Shown here piece by piece: positions 3,369 to 63,722 of a stretch of DNA of 64,000 nt. The position numbers were made by a program, and so were the translations under genes. The DNA comes from Azolla caroliniana (taxonomy: Eukaryota; Plantae; Polypodiophyta), in assembly GCA_043228905.1 (NCBI GenBank), contig JBHGNT010000016.1, positions 8,370,001 through 8,434,000 on the forward strand, given 5' to 3'. The notes below the pieces were generated by a model. It was not told where the DNA came from, did not search any database, and saw nothing but the letters and a program-made list of their open reading frames with translations. The first letter of the stretch is position 1; each line of letters starts with the position of its first letter.

Positions 3369-3652
3369 TGTTACACTTGCGTGTTCCTCTAGTAGCTTTG
3401 ATGTGAACCATTTTCCCTATACATGGGCACTTTTTACTCTAGTGCTGGCTAGAGGTTTTTTCCCCATGTTACCACATACATGAGTCACTCATATGTGGTG
3501 GTACTTAGTACTTAGGGATATATATTTCAGCTCCTATTTTTTTTTAGGAACATTCATCAATAGAGAGCTATTCCAGCCATTGCCTTCCTTGTGTGAGTGC
3601 TTCTTTCTTTGAGCTTCTTGTGTGTTTCCCACTCTTCCTCACATACCCAACA
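3369..3652 (+). repeat. 5' LTR of element B
   Basis: Near-identical to 8257-8539. Confidence 0.95.
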
Positions 3653-3653
3653 G

Positions 3654-3666
3654 TGGTATCAGAGCC
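3654..3666 (+). promoter_or_regulatory. Primer-binding site for tRNA-iMet (element B)
   Basis: TGGTATCAGAGCC 1 nt after LTR end. Confidence 0.93.
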
Positions 3667-3938
3667 AAGTTCTTCATCCTCTCCATCTTCGGTTGTCCGC
3701 ATCGCGGTGTCGCGGCGCGCGCACACTTTTCATTGTGCAAATCAACTTCCGAATATAGAGAAGTGTATTTCAGCACTTGGAGCGCATTTTCAGCAGGTAC
3801 CCTGCTGTTTTACCCCCATTTCGAAGCCATTCGTGTAGTCGAAATCGTCATCCGAGTGATAGTTTGTGAGCTGCATTTTCAGCACTCATTTCCGATTCGT
3901 TGAGGTAATATTTTACCACTTTCTTGTTCTTTGGTAAA

Positions 3939-8210: not shown

Positions 8211-8256
8211 TCTGTCACTCCTTGTACATGTTCACATCATTCGCTCCAGGGGGGTT

Positions 8257-8539
8257 TGTTACACTTGCGTGTTCCTCTAGTAGCTTTGATGTGAACCATT
8301 TTCCCTTTACATGGGCACTTTTTACTCTAGTGCTGGCTAGAGGTTTTTTCCCCATGTTACCACATACATGAGTCACTCATATGTGGTGGTACTTAGTACT
8401 TAGGGATATATATTTCAGCTCCTATTTTTTTTAGGAACATTCATCAATAGAGAGCTATTCCAGCCATTGCCTTCCTTGTGTGAGTGCTTCTTTCTTTGAG
8501 CTTCTTGTGTGTTTCCCACTCTTCCTCACATACCCAACA
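8257..8539 (+). repeat. 3' LTR of element B
   Basis: Near-identical to 3369-3652; followed by TSD TTTCC. Confidence 0.95.
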
Positions 8540-15964: not shown

Positions 15965-16226
15965 TGTCAGGAAACGAATCATCAATCCACAAGAAAAGGA
16001 ATATGCTGAAATGCACAACTTTGAAACACAGAAAATAGTGTACACAGATTTAACCTGGAAACCCTAAACGGAAAAAACCACGGGAACAGAGATTCCACTA
16101 TACACAAGAGAGTACAGAAAAACGGTTACTATCTTCTTTGACACACACACAGGATAACCCGCTTAGGGTTCTTACCAAGTTCGTTGAACCTTGCTACCGC
16201 TCTTGTTGGCCATTGACAACCAAGTA

Positions 16227-19200
16227 TGTAATGAGGAAGGGGCGAGTCGGGTTCCGGATATATAATGATATTATTAATTATAGGAATGGACAGATCCGGA
16301 ATAGGTATGTTGATCCGGATTCAGGCTGATTCGTACCCGGTTGCCGGTTAGGCATCGTTTTGTAACACAGACCCAGAGGCTTATAAAAGGATCCAGGTAT
16401 CGATGTATTAAGGGATGGAATGTTAATATAAGTTCAAAGCTTTGTTATTATATCTTGTGGATCTTTATGTTCTATTCCGTTCTGCGCGCAATATATGAAT
16501 CTTACGCGTGTAATTGGGGTGTGTTCTGAATACGAATACCGAACTGAAAGACAACCAGTTATGGGTGTTAAGTGCTTAATCTCTTACCGTAACCACCCTT
16601 TGATGAAGTGTTCCGAAGGGACACCTTGTGCTAGAGGCAAGTGCGGCCCAGGAATGACACATAATTTGGCGACCACGATTACTGCAGCAAGTAGCGAACA
16701 ACGGGGGGATGGATGACTAGGCCAACAAACGACCTAGTTGCTGAACGAGCAAGAAGACTAGCCGCGAGACTGCGGAGGCGGGAGGCTTACCAACAAGCGG
16801 CTGAGGAGATCTGATTAGATCGGTCTTTTTCCAGCGTGATTCGGTAGGTCGCGGAGGAGTCACTCTATCAATACCCGGACAAAGGAAGCAGTTTGAGCAG
16901 TTTGCGGAATGCAGAATCCATCCTTCAGACCCTCGCGGCGGGCGAGGGAGATTCGGGAGCGTTCTCGGCTATCGAATTGGATTCGGACGGGGAGCACAAG
17001 GTTCAATCCAACTATCGAAGCAGTCACAACACCCCGGAAGACCCGAACGATGACGATTCGGAAAACCTACCAACGATAGAACCAGAAACAACAAAACTGG
17101 CATCCCCGGTCAACGAAGCTGGTTCGAATGAGCAAGTACCTACACCACCACTCAACCACTTGGAGACTCAGGAGGAACACGCTTCGACACCACTACCCAA
17201 GTCACCGAAGAAACAGTAGGAGCGGGTACTAACACCACCTCTGGTAGAACCAATAGACGACAACACCATGCCATACTAGTATCCGAAATATTGGGATGAC
17301 TAGGACGCGGAGGCCCACATCTGCGCCTTTCTCCAAACATGGGAAGCGAACCATGTTTCACAACGGCTGACCGAAGTAGAGGCCGAACGCTCGAAGATAG
17401 CGGAATTCAGCATGACCTTGGAGGGACAGATGGCATAACAAGCACCTTCCTGACAGAAGCGCCACATTTAAAGAATTAAAGAAAATGTTTCTGCGCTTCT
17501 TCCACAGACAGGTGGAACAAAGGGAAATCGTCGGTCAATTCTACACGACCCGACATGACCCGACAAAAATCGTGTTGCATTTCATCATCTGGTTCCAGAC
17601 GCTGCACAGTCAACTCACCAGAGCTCCACTGGAAGGAGAAGTGAAAGCGATATTTTTGGTAGCGCTTCAGGAACCTCTCCGAACAATGTGTGCGGTAATA
17701 GATTTCCAAACCAACACCATAGACCAAGTCATGGACCGGGTAATGGAAATGGACAAGATTAGTTCGTGGCCGTCAATGGGGGCAGTCCAACGAGCACTCC
17801 CTACAGAAGAAGACCTCCGGTTTTGGCAGGCCGTACAATGCACAACGTGCCTTAACCCCAGACACTGAATGGTAGAATGCACAATGAGAGCACACACAAT
17901 GCATGATATGTCATTCCTGAGCACACACAATGGACTGATGTGAATATAATCTACTAAACCGACAGGTGGCACCATTCAGGCAGATCTAACCCCAGACCGA
18001 ATGGCAAAACGATGATGAACGGTTCAGGTGCGATGACCGCTACCGACCAATACAAGACATCCGATACGACAGACGAGAGTATGATCGGGATCATAGGGAT
18101 AGGAGCCGAGAATACAACCATGATAGGTATGATCGCGATTATTCCCCCAACTATAACAAAAGGAGGGATGACCAACGAGGAGAATATGCAGATTCGGATA
18201 GGCGCCCCTCAAACTGGCAGGTATATCAGAACAATTGGCACCATAATCGGAGGAGAAATTTGCGGAGAAACGAGCAGCGAGAACCGGCTAGAGATGATCA
18301 ATGGGAGCCCGATAGAAACATGACTGACGCCCAAGAGCCAAACCAGGCGATAATCAGCTTTCAGTCCGGTAACATGGGAAAAGCGGAATCGAGTAACACA
18401 CGAAAAGTGTATTGTTACTACTGCCGACAAGACGAACACTATAGCAGTCAATGCCCAATCAAGACCAACGAGAAATAACTGGCAGTGAATATGGTGATTG
18501 CGGAGGTGGCTAATATTCAACAGCTCACCACTCGATCAAAAGGAGAAATGACAGAATGGGAGGCTCAGGAAGCAATTCGAAAATAGGCCACCGAATGGAT
18601 AGAAAAGGCGAACGAACGAAACGTGACCGAATTATGAGAACGAATGAAACCTCTGGAGGAACAAACAGAGACCATGGACGAGAATTGAACGTGGCAGGCA
18701 TTACAAGTCTGCCAGATTATGCTACCACTAGGCCGTCTGCTGCAATTAGTGCCCCGATTCACCAACGGACTGAAATCAATATTGGCTGCACAAAACCCCA
18801 TACCGGCTCTGACATTCTTTTCAAATCCGGAAGAAGGACCGAACGTCGTGGACACGAGCAGCCTTGCAATCATAGTCATCGTCAAAGGACGACGAATCGG
18901 GAGTGAACGTAATTAGCCAACGTACATGTGATACGTTAGGGATCTGGGAATGGGAACCATGCCCATTCTGGCTCCAGATGGCTGATACCAGTTCGGTCCG
19001 GCTACTCGGGCTGATCCGGGATTTGGAGGTCACAATTGGCGGACATGCATTCCAGATATCCGTAGTGGTGTTGCAGTTAAGAGCACAAGGAGCATATCCC
19101 TTGTTGCTAGGAAGACCATGGTTGCAGACGACACACATAAAACAAAATTGGCAGAGGAATATCATCACTTTCCGATGTGGCAAAGTAAAAGTGCGAGTAC

Positions 19201-19610
19201 CGATACACCCACGAATAGGAGCCAGTAAGGAGTGGATGCCACTATATGCGAAAAGCATTAACATACTAGAAGGACTAGCCGACGAATAGGTAGACCGATA
19301 CCTAGACGAACATCCAAGGATAGTGCCATTGTTCGAAGTAGACGTTGCAGAAGCAGTTACCCCGTATATTGTGCAACCAGAAGAAGTCGGTGATGAGCCG
19401 GATCGGGAAGCAATCTGAGAATTACATCAAGCACAAGAATCCTTGGAACGGGAAATGGCGGTATTGCAACGAGTAAAAGCGTTGCGGTTGGAGGACGTGA
19501 ACCTCGAAACCAGGGAGGAATCGAAACCAGTCAACACCGTTGAATAAAACAGCAATGGTGTCATTACTAAAAGAATTCCGAGATGTATTCGCATGGTCGT
19601 ACGAAGACAT
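16227..19610 (+). mobile_element. Truncated Ty3/Gypsy relic F (Tat/Athila-type non-chromovirus): LTR, PBS, gag with several zinc knuckles, protease, RT start
   Basis: LTR ~16227-16661, PBS TGGCGACCACG 16667-16677 (tRNA-Arg-like), CYYCRQDEHYSSQC, LLLGRPWL, EFRDVFAWSYED, then abrupt end. Confidence 0.75.
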
Positions 19611-19611
19611 T

Positions 19612-21084
19612 TGGTAACCCTAACCCTACAACACTAACAACACTATTTTGGCGACCACTAAGGCGACCCCCCTTTGGAGACGATGTTGATGACTAATACG
19701 CGACAAAGACATGGGAACGACGAAATGTGCGATAATGGTGACGGTGATTTGCGAGAAATCGAATTTATGATGTGTAGCAAATCAAATCGGTAATGTGCAA
19801 GAAATGGCGACCACAATGTGTTGGAAATGGCCATGATAACGAAAAAAAGAAACAGTCATAGCGACAACCGGAATGACGGAGAGATTGACAACGACAATGA
19901 TGGCCGAACCGACCAACCGACAACGGCCAAGAATAGCTAGCAACGGTAAACTGACGGCCAGATGCACAAACAATGACGAAAAAACACAACTGGACAATGA
20001 CGAAGACGATCGGGACGACAATCGGACAATTGGAAAGACATGGCCATTCGAGCCGAACAACAATGGAGATGACCGGGGACGACGACCTGGATGAACGAAG
20101 ACAGTTGGACAAGGTCGACAGCGACTGTTCTGCGAAGAGACAAAGACAGCTGAAGAGCATCGACGGCAGCCGGAGCCGAACAGAATAATGATGAATGGAT
20201 GGCTGGCCAGAGACAGCCAAGCAATAGTGACGGCCAGAGATGGCCGGACGGCAACCGAAATGGCCGAAATGGCCGAAGAAACGAAGAAGGAAAACACAAG
20301 AAGGAGATAGAAGAAGAAGAAAAGGATACATCAAAACAAGAAGAAGAAGAGGATGGTATCCAACTAGAGATCTAAGAAAGATACAGAGAAGAAACAGATA
20401 GAGAAGCGAGCGAGACAGAAGCAAGAGAGAGGAGGGGAATAATAATAATAATAAATCAACCAATAAAAAGAAAGAAAGGGCAAGCGAAGCGAGAATGATA
20501 GGGGTATCGAACATAATTTTAAAAACATGAGGGTACATAATACAATTTCCAAAACCTAAGGGCATTGCCATTAGTTTAGAAAATTTGAGGCTACAATACC
20601 TAAATTTAAAAACTCAACCACCTAAAAGAAATAGACGTGATCGACCACGACAACTCACACAAAATTAAAGGAAGAACACACATACACACAACATGCTTTT
20701 GGACGCATGACGAAGTTTGTGAACCGATAGAACAAGAATGTTCGTGTCGAGGAAGATTCGTTGACCGAAGGAGGTGTTCGAGTCAAGCGTTCTGATTGAG
20801 GGAGTCGATCGATGAGAGGACCGACGGAAGTTTCGGTCGAAGAAAGATGACGATCAAGGCATGTGGGATCGACGTGCAAGGCACTCTCCCACGGGCGTGC
20901 CATAATGTGTTGCCGTACGAGATGTATGGAGAGCGAGGGTGGAATGTTATGATGTTGTTTATGTGTATGTGTAAATGTGTAAGTGTAATTGTGAGTGTGA
21001 GTAATTACGTATGTGTACACATGCACACGTGTGTGCATGTGGACGGATACGAGGAGGTGTGAGTGAGCGATTGGTGTGAATGTT
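19612..21084. mobile_element. Partial non-coding LTR element G related to L; LTR from ~20908 interrupted by H
   Basis: 20650-21050 resembles the reverse complement of 47700-48130 (GTTCGAGTCAAGC, GTTTCGGTCG, LTR TG-rich tract); CCCACGGGCGTGCCA at 20888-20902. Confidence 0.65.
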
Positions 21085-24000
21085 TGTTAAAATGACTTGA
21101 ATTAATTGGTGTGGTTTATGGAAAGCCACATCTCTCATCTGCATGATCTACACAAAGCATGATGACTAATTGCAAAGTCATCACTCTTGGTGAATATATG
21201 AAGGCCACATGCATCATTAATATAAAAAGTTGGTGAAGTGAAGGCTATAAAAAGGCAGCCTTAATCGTTTGAAGGTGCATCAAAATAGAAGACCACCAAG
21301 AGTTGTAGGCTTGTGAGATGTAAGAGAATAAGAAAGTTTGGGAAACACTAGTAGGAGAAAATTCTTGTGAGAGAATTGTGAGGTTATTCTCTTGGGTGTT
21401 GGGTTTAATTAGAGAATATTTTCTCTAATTGTTGTAAACTCTCTGTTATATATTTTTATAGTGGAATCTCTCTCTTGTCCGTGGACGTAGGCTAATTTGG
21501 CCGAACCATGTAAATACTTGTGTCATTTATTTCTCCGCTCCTATATTATCATATTATTGTCATCTATTTAAACTGATGTACTATTTGATCCGAGTGCCAT
21601 CGTAACAAACTGGTATCAGAGCCCTGGTTGTTAGTACATTAGTTTTGGTATTATCTTGTCAAGTCAAGATGTCGATGACAAAATTTGATGTCGAGAAGTT
21701 TGATCGAAAAATCAACTTCTCTCTTTGGCAAGTAAGGATGCGCGCGATCCTTGTGCAGAACGGAGATCAAAAGGCTTTAGATGTAAGGCCCGACGGTATG
21801 ACAGACACCAGGTGGGAGGAGATAGATGAGAAGGCCTGCTCAGACGTGAAAGCAGATTAGAAGATTTCGAACTTTATAATGGTTTTGAATTCTGCGGAGG
21901 AATTTTAACAGGTTTTGTGAGGTTGAAGGAATTTCCAGACATCGCACAGTAGTTAAAACACCGCAGCAGAATGGCGTAACTGAGCACATGAACAAAACTC
22001 TTTTGGAGAGGGCTCATTGTATGTTTTCCAATGCTAGGTTGTCCAAAGACTTTTGGGCTAAAGCTGTTTCCACGGCATGTTTCCTGGTGAATCGCTCACC
22101 GTCAACGACGATTGAGTTCAAAACTCCTAAAGAGGTATGGTCTGGTAAACCTGCTGATTATTCAAATTTAAGAATATTTGGATGTCTTGCTTATATGCAT
22201 GTTAGTGAAGGAAAATTGGAGCCTCGAGCTAGAAAATGTATTTTTCTTGGTTATGCTTCTGGGGTGAAAGGATATAGGTTGTGGTGTCCTGATCCTAAGT
22301 CACCTAAATTTGCAATTAGTAGAGATGTTACTTTTGATGAATCTGCTCTATTGAATCCTAGAATGGAGCCTATGGTTTCTTCTGATACATATGAGACAGG
22401 AAGTATATCGAAGCAGGTGGAGCTTGAAGTTCCAAGTCCACCAGTGATGGCTGAAACACTTGCTCCTGAACCTGTAGAAGAGGAGCCTGATGTCGTAGAA
22501 GAAGCACCTCCCGAGGAAGAACGAAGTATTGCAAGAGATAGACCAAGAAGAGAAATTAGACCACCACAGAGATATGCTGATTTTGTTGCATATGCTTTAT
22601 TAGTTGGAGAAGAAACAAATTCTATTGGCGAGCCAACTTCTTACTCTGAAGCCGTTTCTTCTATTGATTCCACCAAGTGGTTGATTTCTATGCAAGAAGA
22701 AATTGAGTCTCTTTATAAAAACGAAACTTGGATACTTGTGAAGCCGCCATCTAGACAAAGGATTGTTGGCTGTAAATGGATCTTCAACATAAAGGAAGGA
22801 ATTCTTGGAGTGGAGAAAGCAAGGTAAAAGGCATGGCTAGTAGCTAAAGGCTACAGTCAGGTACCAGGTGTTGATTTTAATGATATTTTCTCACCTGTTG
22901 TGAAACATAGTTCTATTCATGTCTTGCTTGCATTAGTTGCTATGCATGATTTGGAGTTAGAACAACTTGATGTAAAAACCGCATTTCTACATGGTGAACT
23001 TGGCGGAGATATTTACATGCAACAACCAGAAGGTTTTGTTGTTGAAGGAAAAGAAGATCATGTTTTCCTGTTGAAGAAATCGTTGTACGGTTTAAAACAG
23101 TCTTCAATACAGTGGTACAAGCGATTTGATTCCTTTATGGTTGGCAGCGGATACTCAAGAAGCAGTTATGACAGTTGTGTTTATTTTAGGAAGACTCATG
23201 ATGGTTCATTTATCTTTTTGCTTCTTTATGTTGATGACATGTTGATTGCATCTAAAAATATGTTGGATATTGAAGAATTAAAGAAACAGTTGAACAGAGT
23301 GTTCGAGATGAAGGATCTTGGTGCAGCAAAAAAGATCCTTGGCATGGAAATCGAAAGAGATTGTAATGGTGGAAAGCTGTATTTAACTCAGAAGAGTTAT
23401 ATTGAGAAAGTGTTGGAGAGGTTTGGTATGAAAAATGCTAAACCAGTATCGACTCCGTTTGCAGCGCATTTTAAGTTATCAACTTCTTTATCACCAAAGT
23501 CTGATAATGAAAAGAGATACATGACAAGAGTTCCTTACTCCAATGTAGTTGGTAGCATGATGTATGCTATGGTTTGTACGCGTCCAGATATTTCACATGC
23601 TGTGAGTGTGGTCAACAGATATATGGCTTGTCCTAGAAAATCACACTAGAATTCAGTGAAATGGATTTTAAGATATTTGCGTGGAACTTCAGACGCTTGT
23701 TTGGAGTTTGGCAGGAGTAACAGTTCTCTAGTTGGCTATGTTGACTCTGACTACGTTGGTGATCTTGATAAAAGAAGATCACTGACAGGGTGTGTATTCA
23801 CTCTAGGTGGAAGTGCAATTAGTTGGAAAGCTTTGTTGCAGCTCGTGGTTGCGTTATCAACGACAGAGGCAGAGTACATTGCAGTGACAGAGGTGATTAA
23901 AGAAGGGATCTGGTTAAGAGGCTTGCTTGGGGAGCTTAGTTCTTGTTCGGACAAGATCGACATTTTATGTGATAGTCAAAGTGCCATTCATTTGACTAAA

Positions 24001-47375: not shown

Positions 47376-48815
47376 AGGATTCAAGAGTAAAAAACAGTTA
47401 GCTTGATTCGAGGGGCCTTTATTCCCCTATTATAAGCATTCAATTTAAAGGATGCCCTCCTTGACGAGCTGAAAACTCAATGAGCAAAACTAACTCGGCC
47501 TGTTAACGGGTGGGGGGTGAAGCCTAGATTGGCTCCACCCCCCTCCCAAAGGGGGTTACGTGTAAAGGAAAGAGAAGTAAAGAAAAATAGAAAATGACAC
47601 AAATGTGAGAGGGGAAAAATGTATCATCATTACATGCCCATAAGGGGTTTATATAATACATCTAATGTAACGGTTACATAACCATTATAAAGAAGACCGT
47701 TACACATTCTTATACACATGCACATAATTGTGCATGTGTCCATACACATACTCATCCTCACACACTCATTTACTTTACATAGACACATCAACCACATCAT
47801 TACACCTACCCTTATGCCTCCCCCTATATTCTTACGAGTAACACATGGCATGCCTATGGGACAATGCATTGCATAGTGAACCCACTCACCATGGCAACTC
47901 TTCCCGACCGAAACTCCATCAGTCGTCTCAACGGTCGGAAATCCCTTGACCAGATCATAGCTCTATGATCGGTAACTTCAATCGGAGCATTGCTTGACTC
48001 GAACCTTCTCGTTCGATCAGCACAAGTCATGATTGGATCATACACCAATTGGCTAGTTCAATGTGGTATGGGTCGTGAAATTGTGTTGTGTGTTTGTGTA
48101 AATTTTCTTTCGTCATGTGAAGTGAGTTTTATATTTTGTACCCTTTGGTCTTTAAAATTTTGCCCTCAAATTTTTAATTTTTTTTATCATAGGCCCTTCT
48201 GTTTTTTTTGACATATTCTCTTCTACCCTCCCGTTTTTTAAATTTCATCATCTGCCCTTGAGCTTTTGAAATTCCATTGATGTTGCCCTCGAGCTTCTAA
48301 AATTTCGTCAATACGTCCTCCGATTTTCGAAATTTTGCGTCTCATTTACTTCTCTCTGTTTCCTTTTCTTCCCATGTTCTTCTTTTCTGTTGTCGTCTCT
48401 TCTCTGTTTGTCTTCATCTTCATATCTACTCGTGCTATAACCATTGTGCATGTGCCATGCCTTTAACGTGTTTCTCTTGCTTCTCCTCTGTCTTCAGATG
48501 TGATATTGTCATCACTTTCTTGTTCTTTTTGGAGCTTCTTCTTCTATCTGCCTCTTTCTCTTCCAACAGAACAGGGGTTCTAGCTTGCTATCCCATGCAC
48601 AAGCTCTCGACCTTAAAAATTGCTGGCCATGATCTCCTGCATCCTTATCATCCTCAAAATTAGGATCGGCACTTATACTTATGTGGCGGCAGCGGCATCG
48701 ATGGCGCTGATGTATTTGATTTTACTACTGCGTGGCCAGATGAATCAGATTTCTAGGGTTTTAGGAGATGGCAGTGGCGGCGATGGCGCGAAGGCGGCTA
48801 TTGCGATGGCCCCTC

Positions 48816-49033
48816 GTTCTTGGCTCTCGACCCATGATGACTGCCCTTGGTACATATCGACCTCCAGTAGCCTCATTGAAATAAACATCGATCCTCTCTA
48901 GCTGAAGAACTGAATCTCCATGATACGAACCCGTGGGATCTATATCATGCTCGTCACAAATGACCTCCCAAAACTTTGAGCCAATCTGATTTCCATACTG
49001 ACCCCTTGATTGCAGAGAATCCCTTAGACTCAT
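48816..49033 (-). pseudogene. TUB: Captured beta-tubulin N-terminal fragment (~70 codons)
   Basis: [52 protein letters not shown]; damaged start. Confidence 0.93.
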
Positions 49034-49052
49034 TTTTCTTGCGAATACCATT

Positions 49053-49690
49053 AAAGAGCCATCTACTCCAGTTATGAGCACACCAGCCCACGAAGGAATG
49101 TAATCCTCAGACGAGATGCGCGCCGAGCAATGGCACTGTTGATGACCTCTTGGATATCAGCTCCGATGATGGCAACCCCAACCATACCATGATCCATAGA
49201 ACAATTTGAGCCTAGAAAGGGTATTTGTCTCTGCAGAGTTGAGCCAGGTCCCATTAGTAGCGATTCCAAGTTGAGCCGAATGCATCTGAAGAACGAAACC
49301 CATTGCAATGGTCCATAGGACGAGCCATAATAGGGAGTAACCGGCCACCACACCTGATTGCAGGGTACTTTCGATGTTCCCAGAATCTAGGTATGCGATA
49401 CTCATGAGGAATCAGGGCCCGTGAAGAGCCAGAGCTTCTTCCATGAGAAAGGGGGAACCTTCCATGGCCTCCCAAGACTTCCAATGCGGAGTGTGAGATT
49501 CGCTATAGGACTGCGCAGGGGCACAAGCTTGCGTAGTAAGCTTGATAGGAGCGACCTTCTCAGCTCTCAACTCCATGATGGGAGGATGCATCTTAAGCTT
49601 CCCAACCAGAGCCATGGGAATACTATTCTCAACATAAGAAATGCTCCTTTTCTCCTTATCATCGTCTTCTTCTTCAGGAAGCATACACAC
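49053..49690 (-). pseudogene. NRAMP: Captured NRAMP metal-transporter 5' fragment
   Basis: [55 protein letters not shown] across frameshifts; upstream limit approximate. Confidence 0.9.
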
Positions 49691-50567
49691 AAATACACAA
49701 AACACAACACAGACGCCGACGCAGACACAAACCTAGAGATCTGAAGACAGATAACTTCTGGGGTAGCTAGGGTTTTAGGCAGAGAGAGAGAGAGAGAGAG
49801 AGAAGTGAGGGTTTCTTCAAGAACCAGACACATGCTTTCTTTTATTAGGGGAGCTTCCTGTTCCATTTAGCTTTCTTCAGTTTTATACGCATCCTTCCTT
49901 ACTTCAAATCAATGGAGCAAAAACTTAAGCTTTCTATCTCTCATCACACACACAGAGACGACTCTCAACACACAATAGACAGATAGAAAAACACACAAAG
50001 AGGGAGAGAGCTATAGACTTCCTCTCAAGGGCGTGCCAGTGTTAATGGGTGGGTGGTGAAGCCTAGATTGGCTCCACCCCCCTCCCAAAGGGGGTTTACG
50101 TATGAGGGAAAGAGAAGTAAAGAAAAATAGAAAATGACACAAATGTGAGAGGGGAAAAATGTATCTTTATTACATGCCCATAAGGGGTTTATATAATACA
50201 TCTAATGTAACGGTTACATGACCGTTATAAATAAGACCGTTACACATTCTTGTACACATGCACGTAATTGTGCATGTGTCCATACACATACTCATATCCT
50301 CACACACTCATTTATTTTACACATACACATAAACCACATCATTACACCTACCCTTATGCCTCCCCCTATATTCTTACGCGTAACACGACTAAAATCGGGC
50401 GCACTAGGTGGCTGTAAAGTGTAAACAACGTCACCCCCTTTGACTCCTTAGTTCGAGACCCCTGTGGTCCCATTCAGTCTACACGCACATGCGAAATCAA
50501 CGCGATAACATAAAGACTCCTACGATTACTCAAAATATGGGCTCTAACCTTTAGTACACACATATGA

Positions 50568-52195
50568 TGTTGGATATTTACGTACTCTTTGATATCATCC
50601 TTTGAGTGTTGTAGCACATCAACACTTTACTCTTTCACCCTCATCACACTCAACTTTGTGTACATCTCGTACAATAACATTGAGTTCCTTGTCCATGCAA
50701 ATAGACACCCATAAACACACCCATGGATATATAGGTTAATAAATGTATCATATTAAGACGTTCACAATGTACTTTACTACATTTTACCTTGAATTGCATT
50801 AGATCTTAGGAATATAATAATCTCTAGTGTCTAACTCTATGGTGTCATCTGTGGAGCGTATTTAGGGGTAATGGAAACAAAGCACACTTGTCGAAGCTTG
50901 CCTCTCGTATCCACCCAGTCGTAGTTATTCCTTCATGCCTCTCACTCAAATTTTCAAAATTCAGATTTTATCACGCCATATCATGGCGCACTTCGTTAGC
51001 TCTAATTCGCCTATTTGAACTCTAAAATTCGATATCATACGAGGAAGGTATGAGCTTTCTGATTCACATAGCGACTCTAGTTAATCCCTACATGATTTCT
51101 ACCACAAGTTTACTTTTTCCTTCATGTCTCTCGCTCTAAATTTCACAATTCAGATTTTATCACGCCATATCATGGCGCACTTCGTTAGCTCTGATTCACC
51201 TATTTGAACTCTAAAATCCGATATCATACGAGGAAGGTATGAGCTTTCTTATTCACTCATGCGCTCTTGTCTCTCCTTACATGATTTCTACCACAACTTT
51301 ACTTTTTCCTTCATATCGCTCGCTCTAAATTTCAAAATTCAGATTTTATCCGCCATATCATAGATCACTTCCTTAGCTCTGATTCACCTATTTGAACTCT
51401 AAAATCCGATATCCTACGAGGAAGGTATGAGCTTTCTGATTCACTCAGGCGCTTGTGTCTCTCCCTACATGATTTCTGCCACAAGTTTACTTTTTCCTTC
51501 ATGTCTCTCGCTCTAAATTTCAAAATTCAAATTTTATCATGCCATATTATAGACCACTTCCTTAGCTCTGATTCACCTATTTGAATTCTAAAATCTGATA
51601 TCACACGAGGAAGGTATGAGCTTTTTAATTCACTGAGGCGCTCTTGTCTCTCCCTACATGATTTCTGCCACAAGTTTACTTTTTCCTTCATGCCTCTTGC
51701 TTTAAATTTCAACTGTGCTTTCGTACTTTTTTCTTCATGCCTCTCGTATCCACCCAATCAGGTGAAGATTGTTGCCAAGGCTGTTGCCTTGAGGCTAGTA
51801 CATACTCTCTAGTCAAAACCTAGAGAGTTTGTACTCAATTGTATTTGCTATTGTGTAGCCAAGGCTATTGCCTTGAGATTTGTACGTTCCTCTAGTCCAA
51901 ACCTAGAGAGGTCGTACTTAGTTTGTAATCTTTGTTTTCTATCCACCCGATTGGGTGAAGGTTGTAACCAAGGCCATTGCCTTGAGGTAGATACACTCCT
52001 CTAGTGAGGTCGTATTCCATTCTACTCAAAATTATAGTGAAGTTTTTTGGAACTTATGGTTCTCGTGGTTTTTCCCTACTTTGGGTTTTCCACGTTAAAA
52101 TTTTTGGTGTACTCTCATTTTCGTCTTGTGGTTTCATCAAGTGTTAATTGTGTTTGAAGTTTAAATCATCCCGATTCAATCTCATATTCCCAACA
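50568..52195 (+). repeat. Probable long solo LTR containing a tandem array
   Basis: TGTTGG..CCAACA ends and U5-like GGTTTTTCCC..GGGTTTTCCACGTTAAA; no matching TSD found, so left end uncertain. Confidence 0.45.
50928..51710. repeat. Tandem array of ~189-bp units, ~4.1 copies
   Basis: TTCCTTCAT anchor at 50928, 51117, 51306, 51494, 51683. Confidence 0.93.
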
Positions 52196-56930: not shown

Positions 56931-57850
56931 GTTAGTTGAGTGAGGGGCAATACAATCTTTGAATAATCTTTGATTAACTTGCGATAAAATTTTGCGAAAC
57001 CCAAAAAACATTGTACATCTCGCACAGACTATGGTGTTTGCCAATCCAAAATTGTTTGAACCTTTGATGGATCCATAGAGGTGCCATTTGAAGAGACTAT
57101 GTACCCCAGAAATTCCACTTGACACTGGTCGAAACTACACTTCTCCAATTTTGCATAGAGACCATACTCTCGTAACCGTTGCAAAACTTGGCGAACATGT
57201 ATCTCATGCTCCTCTTGATTTTTTGAGTAGATCAAGATATCATCTAGGTAAACTATGATGAAGATATCGAGGAAGTCCTGAAAAATGTCATTCGCCATAT
57301 GTTGGAAAACTGTTGGTGCATTCGTGAGACCAAATGGCATCACTGTATACTCAAAATGACCATAGCGAGTGCAGAATGCGGTCTTCCATTCAAACTGTCA
57401 TAACTAGACTCGAACCCATAACCTTTTGTTACACGGGTCGAGACTTTACCATTAGGTTATGAATTGTAATTTGAAGGATATTATTTTCATTTAGGTTTTA
57501 TTGGGAAATTGATGTATATTCCAGATTTCTCTGGAACATTCTAGAAACTTCAGGAGTATTCCTGAAGACACTATAAAAGGAGGCGCAAGGCATTAGTTCG
57601 AACCAAATCGGTTCAACGCCAGTCTTAAGCCTTCTAACTACTGTTGTATATCTTCCTTCATATAATACATATACCTTTCGCATCATCATTCTCTCTCTCT
57701 CTCTCTCTCTCTCTCACCCATTCCTTCTCTCAAAGTTCGACACCTCTCATAGTACTAATCCTTCTCTGTCTTAGTACTATTCCCCGACAATAGTACTAAT
57801 CCTTCTTTTAGTACTAATTCCTTCTCTGCCTTAATAGAGTTCCTGACAGT

Positions 57851-57862
57851 TTGAACCGATTT
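57851..57862 (+). promoter_or_regulatory. Self-priming PBS (Tf1 type) of N
   Basis: TTGAACCGATTT is the exact reverse complement of AAATCGGTTCAA (57605-57616), 33 nt after TATAAAA. Confidence 0.85.
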
Positions 57863-57949
57863 CCCGGTGCCTGTCTGGTCTTTTCTCTCCCTCTTCCTTC
57901 TGTCTCCCTCCTTTCCTATTAGTCTCTTATTTCCCTTTTCCTTCATCCC

Positions 57950-59119
57950 ATGGCCACCGTTAGCGCTGAAGAGTATCAATCCGTTTTCTCAGAATTTCAA
58001 TGCTTGAAAGAGAAGTTTCATGCTTTGGAACAAGAAAATCAACGCTTGTTGGGGGATCTTCAGCAAATTTCCTTAGAAAAGCAGCAAACACAACAACAGC
58101 ATGGGGAACTTGCGTTACGTGTGCAACAACTCGAAGCAACCATCGTAGCAATGCAACAACAAGGGCACGGAGCACAAGGGATTCATAAAGAACCCAAGAT
58201 TGGCCTTCCCACGAAGTTCGATGGAACGCGATCGCAGTTTAGAGGGTTTCTTAACCAGGTACGGTTAGTTATTCAAATGCATCCGTCCCGATATCCCACC
58301 GATGCATCACGAGTGGGTTTAGTAGGCACGTTGTTAAATGGCTCAGCATTAGCATGGTTCGCTCCGCTACTAGAAAAGGAATCTCCAGTACTAAATAATT
58401 TTGAAGAATTCATAAGTGAGTTTAAAGCATGTTTTGGAGATACTGACAGCATAAGGACTGCAATCAACAAAATCCGGCGATTACGCCAAGGTGACCGTCC
58501 AGCCTCCGCATATGCTGCAGATTTCCGCCTACTCGCCGCCGATATCCCCTGGGATGATCAAGCATTGATGGAGCAGTTCCGCTATGGTCTACGCAACGAT
58601 GTCAAGGATTTACTCTTGACTTTCCCTGAAGAGCCAAAATCATTAACAGAAGCAATCAGTCGAGCGGTCAGATGTGACAACCGCCTCTTCGAGCGACGTT
58701 CGGAACGACAATTTCAGATGCCGAGGGCAAGATCCGAGCCTACCTATGCCTCAGTGGTAGCAAAACCTTTTCAAAGGGAGTCACATAATGCGCCTCCAGT
58801 AAGTACTCCAACTCCAATGGAAATTGACACTACACGTCGTCGTGGGCCGCTATCGGAGGAGGAAAAGCAACGACGCCGAACAAACCGATTATGCCTTTAT
58901 TGCGGTGGACCAGGGCATATCGCGATAAACTGTCCCCATAGACCAAGAAGGCAGGTAAACCAAGTCATTGTTAGTTTCGATTATACTAAACCCGAGTCTA
59001 TTTCAGTAGGAATCTCTGATAGTCCTCATAGTCATAATAGTCCTAATAGTACTAATAGTCCGAATCTCGCAAACAAATTTGATGTCCTTAGCCAATTAGA
59101 AGAAGAGTTAAACGACTAA
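57950..59119 (+). CDS. Gag (coiled coil, capsid, CCHC knuckle) of N
   Basis: PTKFDG..FLNQ, LRQG..AYAADF, PMEID, CLYCGGPGHIAINC. Confidence 0.95.
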   Translation: MATVSAEEYQSVFSEFQCLKEKFHALEQENQRLLGDLQQISLEKQQTQQQHGELALRVQQLEATIVAMQQQGHGAQGIHKEPKIGLPTKFDGTRSQFRGFLNQVRLVIQMHPSRYPTDASRVGLVGTLLNGSALAWFAPLLEKESPVLNNFEEFISEFKACFGDTDSIRTAINKIRRLRQGDRPASAYAADFRLLAADIPWDDQALMEQFRYGLRNDVKDLLLTFPEEPKSLTEAISRAVRCDNRLFERRSERQFQMPRARSEPTYASVVAKPFQRESHNAPPVSTPTPMEIDTTRRRGPLSEEEKQRRRTNRLCLYCGGPGHIAINCPHRPRRQVNQVIVSFDYTKPESISVGISDSPHSHNSPNSTNSPNLANKFDVLSQLEEELND

Positions 59120-59160
59120 GTCCAGCCAAAATAGGAGCCGTTTGGTTGGACAGCCCTAGA
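59107..59160 (+). promoter_or_regulatory. Putative -1 ribosomal frameshift signal
   Basis: G_TTA_AAC heptamer, 6-nt spacer, stem GTCCAGCCAAA/TTTGGTTGGAC; pol lies in the -1 frame, open from 59092. Confidence 0.75.
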
Positions 59161-62100
59161 TCTGTGCAGCCCATTAGTGGTTCCATTCCCTCTAAGCAAG
59201 TTAGTGATGTGTTCGTAGCCCAAGTAGCAGTTAGTACTAAAAGTACCCCTCCAGTACATACCTTAGCCCTTCTAGATTCCGGAGCTAATTCTTGCTTCAT
59301 GGATAGGAATTTTGCCCGAGCTCATCAGATATCTCTCAGAAAGCTCCCATGTCCAGCCTCAGTAGTAGTCATTGATGGTCGTCCCATTGCTTCTGGTAAT
59401 ATCATAGAAGAGTCGGAACCCGTTAATATTGTCCTAGATAACTTAACATGTGTAGTATCATTTAATATTATTAGTATTCCAGAACATCCCATAGTTTTAG
59501 GATTACCATGGTTCGAGTTACATAACCCAGACATAGATTGGAGGACAAGGGAAATCCGGTTGCGACAAACCCAAGGATCTACCCAGAAGGTTGCAACCAT
59601 TTCGCTACGTCAGTTGCATGAGGAAGGGCGCAAGGAGGAAATGTTTCTCTTCGCAATATCAGTACAACCCTCCAGTACCACCAAAGAGGAGTCCACCGTT
59701 CAACTTCCCGAGAAGTATCGTCAGTATGCTGATGTGTTCGATAAAGTACAAGCCAACACACTTCCTCATCATCGGCCGTACGATTGCACCATCGACTTAC
59801 AACCGGGAAAAGAGCCGCCATGGGGGCCGATCTACAATTTGTCACCAACCGAGCTAGAAGTCCTTCGAGCCTATATAGAGGAGAATTTGGAGAACGGTTT
59901 CATTCGGCATTCGAAATCTCCAGCCGGCGCACCCATTTTCTTCGTCAAGAAAAAAGATGGCTCGCTTCGACTCGTTGTAGATTACCGTGGCTTGAATAAG
60001 GTCACAGTAAGAAATAGGTATGCTCTTCCCCTTATCTCAAGTCTTTTAGAACGGATCAACGGTGCCAGGTTCTTCACGAAGATCGACTTACGAGGAGCCT
60101 ATAACCTCGTACGGATCCGACCAGGAGATGAATGGAAGACCGCGTTTCGCACCAGATATGGGCACTTCGAGTATACGGTCATGCCGTTCGGACTCACTAA
60201 TGCGCCGGCAGTCTTCCAGCACATGGCGAATGATATATTTCGAGATCTCTTGGATGATTTTTTGATCATCTATTTGGATGATCTACTAGTTTATTCAAAG
60301 ACCCAAGAAGAACATGATTCTCATGTACTATTAGTACTAAAACGACTTCGAGAACATGGTCTGTATGCAAAGTTAGAGAAATGTAGTTTCGGGTGCAACC
60401 AAGTGGAGTTTCTCGGCTATGTCATCTCCTCAGAAGGCATATCTATGGACCCAGCCAAGGTCAAAACGGTGATAGAATGGCACACTCCGCGTTCGGTGCG
60501 GGATGTGCAATGCTTCCTAGGCTTTGCAAATTTCTACCGGAAGTTCATACAAAATTACTCAAAAATTGTGCTGCCTCTCACACAGCTCACCAGGAAGGGA
60601 CAATCATTCATTTGGTCTAAAGAGACGGACATGGCTTTCGAGAGTCTTAAGAAGGCGTTTACATCAGCTCCAATTTTAGGTCATGTGGATCCGGAAAAAC
60701 CATTCATTATCGAAGCTGACGCATCGGATTTCGCATTGGGGAGCATTCTGTCACAACAGGGTAACGACGAGAAGCTACATCCTGTGGCTTTCCACTCCCG
60801 TAAGTTTGACGTCGCCGAAATCAACTACGAAATTCATGATAAAGAGCTATTAGCAATAGTTGATTCTTTTATGCAATGGAGGCATTTCCTGGAGGGATCT
60901 CCTCATCAGGTCACTGTATTCAGTGACCATAAGAACCTTGCCTACTTTCAAGATGCTCGTGTACTGAATCGACGTCAAGCTCGGTGGGCCCACTTCCTCA
61001 CACGCTTCGACTTCAAAATTACATATCGTCCGGGGAAGCACCAAGGGAATGCAGATGCATTATCACGGCGTTCGTATCTAACACCACGTCCCGGTGAGCC
61101 AGCTTTCGATAACCAGAAGCAAGTAATCTTGGGTCCAGCACGACTGCAAGCAGCACAGGTCTTTGACATGCCCGTGGATTCCGACATTACCAATACTATA
61201 CGTGAGGACTTGAAGACTGACGCTTTCGCCCAAGCTATACTAGCACAAATTGACCCCTCTCGAGCGTCATGTTCACAATCACAATCACCAGGTACGGATT
61301 ATCGGCAATTCAAATACTGTGATGGATTACTCTTCTTTAAAGAACTTTTGTATGTTCCTAATGGTTCTTGCCGCCTTCGAGTAGTACAAAACTGCCATGA
61401 CACATATACAGCAGGACATTTTGGTAGTACTAAAACATTAGATTTAGTACAACGATCATTCTGGTGGCCCCGTATGCGACAATTTGTCGAAGATTTTGTT
61501 CGGACTTGCGATACATGCTGCAGAGCGAAAATGCCAAGACATCATCCATATGGTTTATTAGAACCATTACCAATTCCAAGCAAGCCATGGCAATCCATTG
61601 CTCTTGACTTCATTACAGATCTTCCAGTCTCTAAGGGATTCAGTGCGATTCTCACAGTGGTGGATCGATATACAAAGATGGCTCATTTCTTACCATGTAC
61701 TAAAGAAATATCTAGTGAAGACACCGCCGAAATTGTCATGCGGGAAGTATGTCGGCATCATGGACTCCCTGATAATATCATCAGCGATCGTGGACCCCAG
61801 TTTGTGTCAAAATTCTGGAAGCACCTTTTTAAAATGCTGAAGGTCACTTGTCACCTCTCCTCCGGCTACCACCCACAAACCGACGGTCAAGCTGAACGAA
61901 CAAATCAAACACTAGAGCAGTATCTGCGGTGCTTTCTCAACTATCATCAGAATGACTGGGCAGATATTCTTCAGTTCGCCGAATTTGCCTATAATAACGC
62001 TATCCACGCATCGACTAAAGTCACGCCATTCTACGCTTATACAGGATATCATCCCCGGTGGTGTGTCCTTGAAACCCCAGAAGTGTCCACAAATCCTTGC

Positions 62101-62703
62101 GCGGAGGATCGTTTGGAGCGGTTACGCAAGATACAAGCGGATTTATCTACTCAACTCCAGCAAGCTCAACAATCACACAAGGACTACGCAGATCGTCATC
62201 GACTTCCATCCAGTTTTAACATTGGAGATCGGGTGTGGCTGCTACGACGACACATCAAGACTACTCGCCCATGTGAGAAGTTGGATTATCGGCGATTAGG
62301 TCCTTTCCGTATTATCGGGAAGATTAATGATGTCGCTTTTCGTCTCGAGCTACCTCCGCAACTTCGGATACATCCGGTGTTTCATAGTTCTCTCCTCGAA
62401 CCCTATCACGAGAGCACTATCCCAGGACGTACTATACAACCACCACCTCCTATCGAGCTCGAAGATGGACCTGAGTATGAGGTCGCTGCCATCCTCGATT
62501 CCAAGATTGTTCGCAACAAGCTCTACTATCTAGTCGATTGGCTAGGATATAGTCCCAGCGAGCGTACTTGGGAACCGATCGAGAATGTGACCAATGCTCG
62601 TGCTCTTCTAGAAGACTTCCATCGACAATATCCCGAGAAACCGGGTCCTCAATCCAAAACGACTTGTGGAACTCGTCGTTTTAAAGGGGGGATAGTGTCA
62701 TAA
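59146..62703 (+). CDS. Pol (protease, RT, RNase H, integrase, chromodomain) of N, probably made as Gag-Pol by frameshift
   Basis: LLDSGA, YLDD, ADASD..DKELLA, HHCC, SDRGPQF, DGQAER, GPF, EYEVAAIL..YLVDWLGY..TWEP. Confidence 0.96.
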   Translation: MDSPRSVQPISGSIPSKQVSDVFVAQVAVSTKSTPPVHTLALLDSGANSCFMDRNFARAHQISLRKLPCPASVVVIDGRPIASGNIIEESEPVNIVLDNLTCVVSFNIISIPEHPIVLGLPWFELHNPDIDWRTREIRLRQTQGSTQKVATISLRQLHEEGRKEEMFLFAISVQPSSTTKEESTVQLPEKYRQYADVFDKVQANTLPHHRPYDCTIDLQPGKEPPWGPIYNLSPTELEVLRAYIEENLENGFIRHSKSPAGAPIFFVKKKDGSLRLVVDYRGLNKVTVRNRYALPLISSLLERINGARFFTKIDLRGAYNLVRIRPGDEWKTAFRTRYGHFEYTVMPFGLTNAPAVFQHMANDIFRDLLDDFLIIYLDDLLVYSKTQEEHDSHVLLVLKRLREHGLYAKLEKCSFGCNQVEFLGYVISSEGISMDPAKVKTVIEWHTPRSVRDVQCFLGFANFYRKFIQNYSKIVLPLTQLTRKGQSFIWSKETDMAFESLKKAFTSAPILGHVDPEKPFIIEADASDFALGSILSQQGNDEKLHPVAFHSRKFDVAEINYEIHDKELLAIVDSFMQWRHFLEGSPHQVTVFSDHKNLAYFQDARVLNRRQARWAHFLTRFDFKITYRPGKHQGNADALSRRSYLTPRPGEPAFDNQKQVILGPARLQAAQVFDMPVDSDITNTIREDLKTDAFAQAILAQIDPSRASCSQSQSPGTDYRQFKYCDGLLFFKELLYVPNGSCRLRVVQNCHDTYTAGHFGSTKTLDLVQRSFWWPRMRQFVEDFVRTCDTCCRAKMPRHHPYGLLEPLPIPSKPWQSIALDFITDLPVSKGFSAILTVVDRYTKMAHFLPCTKEISSEDTAEIVMREVCRHHGLPDNIISDRGPQFVSKFWKHLFKMLKVTCHLSSGYHPQTDGQAERTNQTLEQYLRCFLNYHQNDWADILQFAEFAYNNAIHASTKVTPFYAYTGYHPRWCVLETPEVSTNPCAEDRLERLRKIQADLSTQLQQAQQSHKDYADRHRLPSSFNIGDRVWLLRRHIKTTRPCEKLDYRRLGPFRIIGKINDVAFRLELPPQLRIHPVFHSSLLEPYHESTIPGRTIQPPPPIELEDGPEYEVAAILDSKIVRNKLYYLVDWLGYSPSERTWEPIENVTNARALLEDFHRQYPEKPGPQSKTTCGTRRFKGGIVS

Positions 62704-62985
62704 CTAGACTCGAACCCATAACCTTTTGTTACACGGGTCGAGACTTTACCATTAGGTTATGAATTGTAATTTGAAGGATATTATTTTCATTTAGGTTTTA
62801 TTGGGAAATTGATGTATATTCCAGATTTCTCTGGAACATTCTAGAAACTTCAGGAGTATTCCTGAAGACACTATAAAAGGAGGCGCAAGGCATTAGTTCG
62901 AACCAAATCGGTTCAATGCCAGTCTTAAGCCTTCTAACTACTGTTGTATATCTTCCTTCATATAATACATATACCTTTCGCATCA

Positions 62986-63037
<52 letters not shown>

Positions 63038-63722
63038 ATTCCTTCTCTCAAAGTTCGACACCTCTCATAGTACTAATCCTTCTCTGTCTTAGTACTATTC
63101 CCCGACAATAGTACTAATCCTTCTTTTAGTACTAATTCCTTCTCTGCCTTAATAGAGTTCCTGACACAAACAAGGTTGTAGGCACCTCGAAGATCTAACT
63201 TCATGAAATACTTTGCTCCACTGAGGCGTTCTAGAAGGCTTGAGATCAATGGTAGAACATATTGGTTTCTAATAGTCCCTTTATTCAAGCCCCGATAATC
63301 CATGACCATACGAAGCGTACCATCTTTCTTCTTAACGAAAAAGATGGGTGCACCAGTAGGAGATCTTGAATGTTGGGTAAAACCATTTGCCAGGTTCTCA
63401 TCGATATATTCTTGAAGAACCTCTAACTCCGTGGGCAAAAGGTTATAAATTGGCCCCCATGGAGGCTCTTTTCTTGGCTTCAAATCAATCGGGAAATCAT
63501 ATGGTCGATGTTCTGGTAATCTATTAGCCTTCACCTTATCGAACACATCGGAGAATTCTATGTACTTCTTTGGTAATTGGACCCCCAATTCTTGTGAGCT
63601 AGATGAGGGAGTTTCTAAAACCGCAAACACTAGCATGTCTTCCTTCCTTCCATCCTCTCATAACTGATGTATAGAGATTGTTGAAATCTTGTGGGATCTT
63701 AGATCTGTTAGAAAATGGAGTT

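What the first reader, a model, noticed from the sequence alone, without database searches (positions are those of the whole stretch)
48450..50030. Chimeric cargo of host gene fragments (NRAMP + beta-tubulin) inside element L
Seen: on the minus strand a CT-rich leader with a telo-box (AAACCCTA) is followed by the NRAMP N-terminal third, joined within ~20 nt to the beta-tubulin start. Then come a second GC-rich telo-box segment and unidentified sequence. Both recognisable pieces are 5' gene ends in the same orientation. Inference: serial capture of mRNA 5' ends by template switching, a Pack-type behaviour in a small LTR element. It could produce siRNAs or antisense RNA against the parent genes. 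No intron is visible, but that is not diagnostic for these exons.
Basis: partly seen in the sequence, partly recalled or inferred. Interest (0 to 1): 0.72.

Follow-up and report, generated by a model that had tools for sequence, protein, structure and literature searches.

The report
Retroelement carrying three spliced gene pieces
A small plant jumping gene with no protein genes of its own carries a chain of broken pieces of at least three host genes, two of them without their first intron, so it likely picked them up from messenger RNAs while being copied, a process already known from maize Bs1; its one odd trait is a tRNA-like site where the usual second-strand start signal should be.

Summary
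The chimera is real and richer than reported. Element L (47501-50385, minus strand, 94%-identical LTRs) is one insertion: an empty site exists in read data. The CT/telo-box leader is not NRAMP's: NRAMP lacks its first ~50 codons. The NRAMP match stops exactly where host genomic contigs enter a GTAAGT intron, and a likely exon-2 remnant follows. The Stm1 piece runs 17 nt past its inferred first intron position. A sister copy shares the junctions and frameshifts, so the cargo was duplicated as a unit. Two other family copies have different interiors. Best reading: Bs1-type LTR-mediated retroposition by template switching onto host mRNAs (0.72). DNA capture followed by splicing is not excluded. 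Microhomology, expression and small RNAs were not shown. The carrier has no polypurine tract: a tRNA-3'-end-like 17-mer sits there and is kept in other copies, which agrees with unreviewed notes on this genome. The cargo is a known kind; the carrier is an unusual variant.

The parts
50040..50385 (-). 5' LTR (346 nt, TG...CA), TATA-like and AATAAAG-like motifs on the minus strand
50029..50038 (-). PBS-like site TGGCACGCCC, 1 nt after the LTR; followed by a 17-column gap relative to family copies L004/L005
   Evidence: tRNA isotype (Arg) is recalled, not tested
49811..50028 (-). short family leader, then unidentified sequence; bin 49853-49963 is covered by a contig of the RNA-labelled run X14 (possible further donor)
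49631..49810 (-). CT run, telo-box (49775-49768), TG-rich stretch and acidic codons; donor unassigned; not the NRAMP 5' end
49490..49630 (-). Stm1_N / RGG RNA-binding protein fragment (residues 14-60 of P0011); crosses the inferred intron-1 position after 49507 without an intron
49059..49490 (-). NRAMP exon-1 fragment (residues ~50-191), frameshifted; ends exactly at the host splice donor
49038..49058 (-). 21-nt linker containing GGT ATT CGC AAG (G-I-R-K), likely a deleted remnant of NRAMP exon 2
48812..49037 (-). beta-tubulin start (ATG 49033) to codon 73; 4-nt insertion and 1-nt deletion near the start, shared with the sister copy
48600..48811 (-). GC-rich repeat, second telo-box (48761-48754) and unidentified low-copy sequence, also present in the sister copy
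48300..48599 (-). AG-rich unidentified stretch; similar in composition (not by alignment) to the same position in L004 and L010
47863..48299 (-). conserved, high-copy 3' backbone of the family
47846..47862 (-). tRNA-3'-end-like 17-mer ending in GCCA, 2 nt before the 3' LTR, in place of a polypurine tract
47501..47843 (-). 3' LTR (343 nt, TG...CA)
47496..47500 (+). left target-site copy CGGCC
   Evidence: (table 5c)
50386..50390 (+). right target-site copy CGACT (3 of 5 identical, two transitions)
   Evidence: (table 5c)

Best explanation
Element L is one 2.9-kb non-coding LTR element whose interior is a chain of sense-strand pieces of at least three host genes, likely gained when reverse transcriptase borrowed from an autonomous relative switched onto spliced host mRNAs packaged with the element's RNA. 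Shown: single insertion, three donors, no intron after the NRAMP exon end, and a sister copy with the same junctions. Inferred: loss of the Stm1 intron (from protein records), template switching, capture in several rounds, retrotransposition of the finished composite, and mobilisation in trans. This copy is a decayed pseudogene mosaic. The carrier has no polypurine tract and likely starts its second strand from the tRNA-like site before the 3' LTR.
For: LTRs 94.2% identical, TG...CA, K2P 0.051. One contig of run X2 joins 47491 to 50391 with 9 letters between, i.e. an empty site with one copy of the 5-mer. No retroelement domain among the 68 stop-free internal frames scanned. Host NRAMP genomic contigs in X1 and X2 leave the element at 49059 into GTAAGT, while a contig of the RNA-labelled run X14 leaves there into exon 2 (FIFLFLENYG). 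P0002/P0009 end in 'DG' at the same point. The only G-[IVM]-R-K coding match in the cargo lies 9 nt after the exon end; about 7e-4 is expected in 30 nt (pattern chosen after seeing it). Stm1 records P0014/P0015 end PAQS-GM, as an exon read into a GT intron would; P0011 and an X14 contig continue PAQSV.., and the element continues PAQS-YSESHT. All 3 of 3 identified pieces are in sense. The sister copy spans Stm1-NRAMP-tubulin (P0008) and tubulin-downstream (P0013), and a contig crosses the NRAMP/tubulin joint. In 49059-49300 both copies share 18 listed differences from the host gene and differ from each other at 10 (1 row hidden).
Against: Intron absence cannot separate mRNA capture from DNA capture followed by splicing in a later RNA round. 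Junction microhomology could not be measured: only 30 letters of each donor beyond the junction were visible. The exon-2 remnant needs a net 19-nt loss, and its first 9 nt fit exon 2 poorly. The Stm1 intron is inferred from protein records of possibly different paralogues; its DNA was not seen. The TSD is only 3 of 5 identical, and the empty site is one contig, perhaps a paralogue of the target. The LTRs and flanks of the sister copy were not seen, so segmental duplication or a homoeologue is possible. The host genes laid are 7-12% different from the element and may not be the true donors. The interiors of L004/L005 gave no Pfam match at E<=0.001 in the 65 frames scanned, so family-wide gene capture is not shown.
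Confidence: 0.72

Rival explanations
1. Genomic fragments with introns were captured at DNA level (gap repair or Pack-type filler), and the introns were spliced out in a later retrotransposition round.
For: The element has probably passed through RNA since capture (sister copy). The pieces are 5'-biased with telo-box leaders, as recalled for Pack-MULE cargo. The TG-rich stretch at 49732-49672 has GT..AG ends and could be a retained 5'-UTR intron (seen, untested).
Against: All 3 identified pieces are in sense. Two complete introns would have had to be captured with only ~17-40 nt of the next exon. No intron-bearing copy appeared among the 16 contigs laid on 48930-49300.
Confidence: 0.12
2. The NRAMP/tubulin joint was made by splicing: the NRAMP exon-1 donor was joined to an acceptor in another captured piece (for example a tubulin 5'-UTR exon) within the element's own transcript, or by trans-splicing.
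For: The NRAMP match ends exactly at the donor. The first 9 nt after it fit exon 2 poorly. The tubulin UTR of the true donor was visible for only 5 nt.
Against: The G-I-R-K codons 9 nt downstream match NRAMP exon 2 of homologues (P0003 GVRK, P0004 GMRK). The Stm1/NRAMP and tubulin/downstream joints are not at known exon ends.
Confidence: 0.12
3. The two repeats are independent solo LTRs that happen to flank an older processed-pseudogene mosaic.
For: The family is very abundant, many copies look solo or truncated, and the TSD is imperfect.
Against: An empty site skips both LTRs and the whole interior. The family's own PBS leader and 3' backbone lie directly inside the two LTRs.
Confidence: 0.03

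Closest known systems
Maize Bs1 (as described in PMC13317346 and PMC5131818; passages read; primary papers not read)
   Same: [quoted passage not shown]
   Different: Bs1 forms a transcribed and translated chimeric ORF. This copy has stops and frameshifts; the sister has a 191-253-codon predicted frame of unknown expression. Different donors; carrier without a PPT.
LTR-mediated retroposition by template switching (Tan et al. 2016, PMC5131818; passages read)
   Same: Partial, intronless, often multi-gene pieces replace the interior of an LTR element; secondary retroposition; one recurrent switch site was reported near an exon-exon junction.
   Different: Microsimilarity and co-transcription, central there, were not shown here. 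That study covers animals.
Gene-capturing TRIMs, e.g. soybean GmaRetroS15 (bioRxiv 10.1101/010850; passages read, supplements closed)
   Same: Small non-coding LTR elements carrying exon-only pieces of up to three genes including a 5' UTR, 5-bp TSD, further copies after capture.
   Different: Those elements are 1172-1449 bp; L is 2885 bp with 343-346-bp LTRs and no PPT.
PPT-less Gypsy lineage with a tRNA-3'-end copy (unreviewed earlier notes on this genome)
   Same: PBS-like site after the 5' LTR and a tRNA-end-like site 2 nt before the 3' LTR, behind a small hairpin.
   Different: L is non-coding and cargo-filled; its link to a particular autonomous element was not tested.
Pack-MULEs (features recalled; contrasted in bioRxiv 10.1101/010850)
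   Same: Multi-gene, 5'-biased fragments in a non-autonomous element.
   Different: Pack-MULEs have terminal inverted repeats and keep introns; L has direct LTRs and lacks the introns.

Membership tests
LTR-mediated retrocopy chimera (Bs1 type) | cargo flanked by both LTRs of one insertion | tested here: met
   empty site
LTR-mediated retrocopy chimera (Bs1 type) | partial pieces of host genes replace the element's coding region | tested here: met
   no retroelement domain in 68 frames
LTR-mediated retrocopy chimera (Bs1 type) | introns absent | tested here: met
   NRAMP by DNA and RNA-labelled contigs; Stm1 inferred from protein records; tubulin piece uninformative
LTR-mediated retrocopy chimera (Bs1 type) | microsimilarity at switch points | tested here: inconclusive
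   only 30 donor letters beyond junctions were visible, and only for NRAMP and the tubulin start
LTR-mediated retrocopy chimera (Bs1 type) | secondary retroposition with shared switch points | tested here: inconclusive
   sister copy shares the junctions; its LTRs and TSD were not seen
LTR-mediated retrocopy chimera (Bs1 type) | co-transcription from the LTR | not testable with these tools
   only contigs of a guessed RNA run were available
Canonical LTR retrotransposon cis signals | PBS after the 5' LTR | tested here: met
   TGG-starting site 1 nt after the LTR, kept in L005 and decayed in L004; tRNA isotype recalled only
Canonical LTR retrotransposon cis signals | polypurine tract before the 3' LTR | tested here: not met
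   8 of 17 purines with no run in L and L004, 9 of 17 in L010; control elements of the window show G-runs or 12 of 17
Canonical LTR retrotransposon cis signals | 4-6-bp TSD | tested here: inconclusive
   CGGCC/CGACT, 3 of 5; length of 5 supported by the empty site
TRIM | very small size (gene-carrying examples 1172-1449 bp) | tested here: not met
   2885 bp
Pack-MULE | terminal inverted repeats, longer TSD, introns retained | tested here: not met
   no such pair among the 25 of 44 inverted pairs shown; direct LTRs; introns absent
PPT-less dual-tRNA-site Gypsy lineage (unreviewed notes) | tRNA-3'-end-like copy 2 nt before the 3' LTR | tested here: met
   L, window element at 20902, L004, L010; decayed in L003. 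Rfam gave no tRNA match, so the tRNA identity is recalled.
PPT-less dual-tRNA-site Gypsy lineage (unreviewed notes) | shared LTR or RT ancestry with an autonomous member | not tested
   no genome held; no coding element with this LTR in the window

The most novel reading that the evidence does not exclude
L belongs to an abundant non-autonomous family that keeps only its LTRs, a PBS and a tRNA-like second-strand site, so both strands are tRNA-primed, and that refills its interior with host mRNA pieces. Reverse transcriptase enters those mRNAs just downstream of the first exon-exon junction (seen for 2 of 3 donors). This would be a rule-governed exon-shuffling vehicle, and the sister copy might express a Bs1-like Stm1-NRAMP fusion.
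Probability: 0.15. Interest if true: 0.8.

Novelty: new variant of a known kind. Interest (0 to 1): 0.47.

Why it matters
Multi-gene mRNA capture by LTR elements is known (Bs1, TRIMs, animal retrocopies), so the cargo alone is a clean new example with unusually direct intron evidence. Two points add value. A non-coding, cargo-filled and abundant family keeps the tRNA-like site at the PPT position while its interior differs between copies, which is what a required cis signal would do; this supports the untested idea of tRNA priming of the second strand. Also, two captured pieces end within about 17-40 nt of the first exon junction, a testable bias in where reverse transcriptase enters host mRNAs.

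Tried and rejected
No host genome is held, so no genome BLAST. No RNA holder listed for the stretch. In the guessed RNA run X14 no listed contig bridged a cargo junction; these are contigs only and say nothing on expression. X15 laid nothing. Segment 48811-48300: Pfam none, the homologue search found only the sister copy, Atlas no usable hit. The Atlas lead for the first coding piece (HAT repeats, scores under 0.9) was rejected after the Stm1 match; a word-indexed search for it found nothing, and Pfam did not hit the window fragment directly. Pattern scans that found nothing: LTR end plus tRNA-like site in metagenomes and viral contigs; LTR core in prokaryote genomes; tRNA-arm pattern in viral contigs. 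Rfam: nothing near a gathering score, no tRNA match. The idea that the two internal ends form a 16-bp inverted repeat was dropped: beyond 10 nt it results from a deletion in this copy. Troyka was considered as a precedent for two primer sites; its main text has 0 hits for PBS, tRNA, PPT and polypurine. Paper searches found no description of a tRNA site replacing the PPT; one search listed no fern-specific report of such cargo (listings only; most subscription papers are not covered). The E2 row was sliced at wrong coordinates and is ignored. Look-ups of earlier findings near this place and by sequence were empty.

Full report
Setting. The window is a plant repeat nest of Copia and Gypsy elements. 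The host is a plant: the NRAMP homologues include a Brassica protein. Earlier notes call this genome a fern, which I did not test. No assembly is held, so donors were traced through protein records and contigs of public runs.

The carrier. Two direct repeats, 50385-50040 and 47843-47501, are 94.2% identical, begin with TG and end with CA on the minus strand; K2P distance 0.051. The flanking 5-mers CGGCC and CGACT differ by two transitions. One contig of run X2 joins 47491 to 50391 with nine letters between, which is the flank with a single copy of the 5-mer (table 5c). So both repeats and the interior behave as one insertion, although the contig may come from a paralogue of the target. None of 68 stop-free internal frames matched a retroelement domain. 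Summed contig depth is 10^4 over the LTRs and 47855-48076 against about 100 over the cargo in X1; this is no copy number, but it marks an abundant family with rare cargo. A metagenome scan gave 11 family loci. Four (L003, L004, L006, L010) share the 3' backbone, two (L004, L005) show the 5' inner end, and none matches L's cargo. The interiors of L004 and L005 gave only two weak Pfam hits in 65 frames (E 0.038 and 0.0016).

The cargo. Nramp and tubulin are confirmed; the tubulin is beta, matched over residues 9-73, with its ATG at 49033. Host NRAMP proteins match only from residue ~54, and the host genomic contig has 249 unmatched bases upstream. Upstream of NRAMP lies a different gene: phmmer found P0011 (E 1.5e-5), a Stm1_N protein (PF09598, E 1.2e-21), aligning at 49630-49490 with 57% identity. 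Contigs of the RNA-labelled run X14 cover the same stretch. The order is therefore leader, Stm1 piece, NRAMP piece, tubulin piece, second telo-box segment. The two telo-box segments and 49963-49853 remain unassigned.

Introns. On 48930-49300, host NRAMP contigs of X1 and X2 leave the element at 49059 into GTAAGT, a splice donor, whereas an X14 contig leaves at the same base into exon 2. The element has no intron there. Nine bases on it reads GGT ATT CGC AAG, the G-[IVM]-R-K of exon 2 in homologues. This is the only such match in the cargo, with about 7e-4 expected in 30 nt; the pattern was chosen after seeing it, and a net 19-nt loss must be assumed. For Stm1, records P0014/P0015 end in PAQS-GM, as a gene call running into a GT intron would, while P0011 continues PAQSVKESRT. 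The element continues PAQS-YSESHT, 17 nt into the inferred exon 2. That intron's DNA was not seen. No joint was listed inside the tubulin piece, so it is uninformative.

History. A sister copy carries the same junctions and frameshifts: P0001 and P0005-P0008 span Stm1-NRAMP-tubulin, P0013 spans tubulin to about 48350, and an X2 contig crosses the NRAMP/tubulin joint. In X1 the window copy, the sister and the host gene all occur. Over 49059-49300 the two copies share 18 listed differences from the host gene and differ from each other at 10 (8 private to the window, 2 to the sister; 1 row hidden), so capture came well before their split, if the laid gene is the donor. A further frameshifted, apparently intronless Stm1 copy (P0012 cluster, 5 members) shares the element's derived residues and runs past the NRAMP switch point (11 of 13 residues compatible in the shifted frame). 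It may be an earlier stage; it has no DNA context here.

Mechanism. The simplest account is the template-switch model of LTR-mediated retroposition (PMC5131818, passages): host mRNAs are co-packaged, reverse transcriptase jumps onto them and back, and the product moves again as a non-autonomous element. Shown: anatomy, donors, absence of the NRAMP intron, shared junctions. Inferred: the switching, its order, and the helper. DNA capture followed by splicing, and a splice-made NRAMP/tubulin joint, remain possible (0.12 each).

The missing PPT. Before the 3' LTR there is no purine tract in either orientation. A 17-mer ending in GCCA, resembling a tRNA 3' end by my recall (Rfam gave no match), sits 2 nt before the LTR. 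It is kept in L004 and L010, in a 69%-identical window element at 20902, and is decayed in L003. I noted this before consulting earlier findings; those unreviewed notes describe the same trait in Gypsy elements of this genome and are not independent support. Neumann et al. 2019 (PMC6317226, passages) give a PBS plus PPT as the norm and tRNA-Arg as a common non-chromovirus primer; its supplements were not read. Searches found no description of this replacement.

Comparison and verdict. Bs1 carries pieces of three genes (PMC13317346, passages). Soybean TRIMs carry exon-only pieces of up to three genes (bioRxiv 10.1101/010850, passages; supplements closed). Gene-fragment capture is widespread in vascular plants (PMC13477047, passages). 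PMC11963269 (passages) was read for Retand 3' regions and did not bear on the result. L works like Bs1, is too large for the gene-carrying TRIMs described there, and is not a Pack-MULE. The cargo is a new member of a known kind; the PPT-less carrier makes the whole a new variant. Interest 0.47.

Noticed in passing
window 19640-21090: Truncated relative of the L family on the plus strand (69% over 257 nt) with the same tRNA-end-like site at 20902; no 5' LTR found.
   Followed up: partly
L004:836-1250: One LTR with the family's 3' backbone upstream and a PBS leader downstream: a tandem (three-LTR) arrangement or an assembly collapse.
   Followed up: partly
window 50785-51712: Array of about 189-bp tandem repeats (4-5 copies) just outside the element.
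   Followed up: no
window 57396-63166: Chromodomain Gypsy with long open frames, 96%-identical LTRs, matching CAAAC flanks, a PPT and no tRNA-type PBS (self-priming type possible).
   Followed up: no
window 3369-8539: Young Copia element: 99.3%-identical LTRs, a 1433-codon open frame, TTTCC flanks.
   Followed up: no
window 16226-19400: Gypsy-like element with a TGGCGACCAC primer-like site near 16660 and a zinc knuckle; similar motifs recur near 19650 and 19810.
   Followed up: no
P0005-P0008 (sister of window 49684-48957): The sister copy keeps a 191-253-codon predicted frame fusing the Stm1 piece to partly in-frame NRAMP, and has fewer private changes than the window copy (2 against 8 in 242 nt).
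   Followed up: partly
window 49853-49963: Covered by a contig of the RNA-labelled run X14; an ATG frame starts at 49866. Possible fourth donor gene, unidentified.
   Followed up: partly
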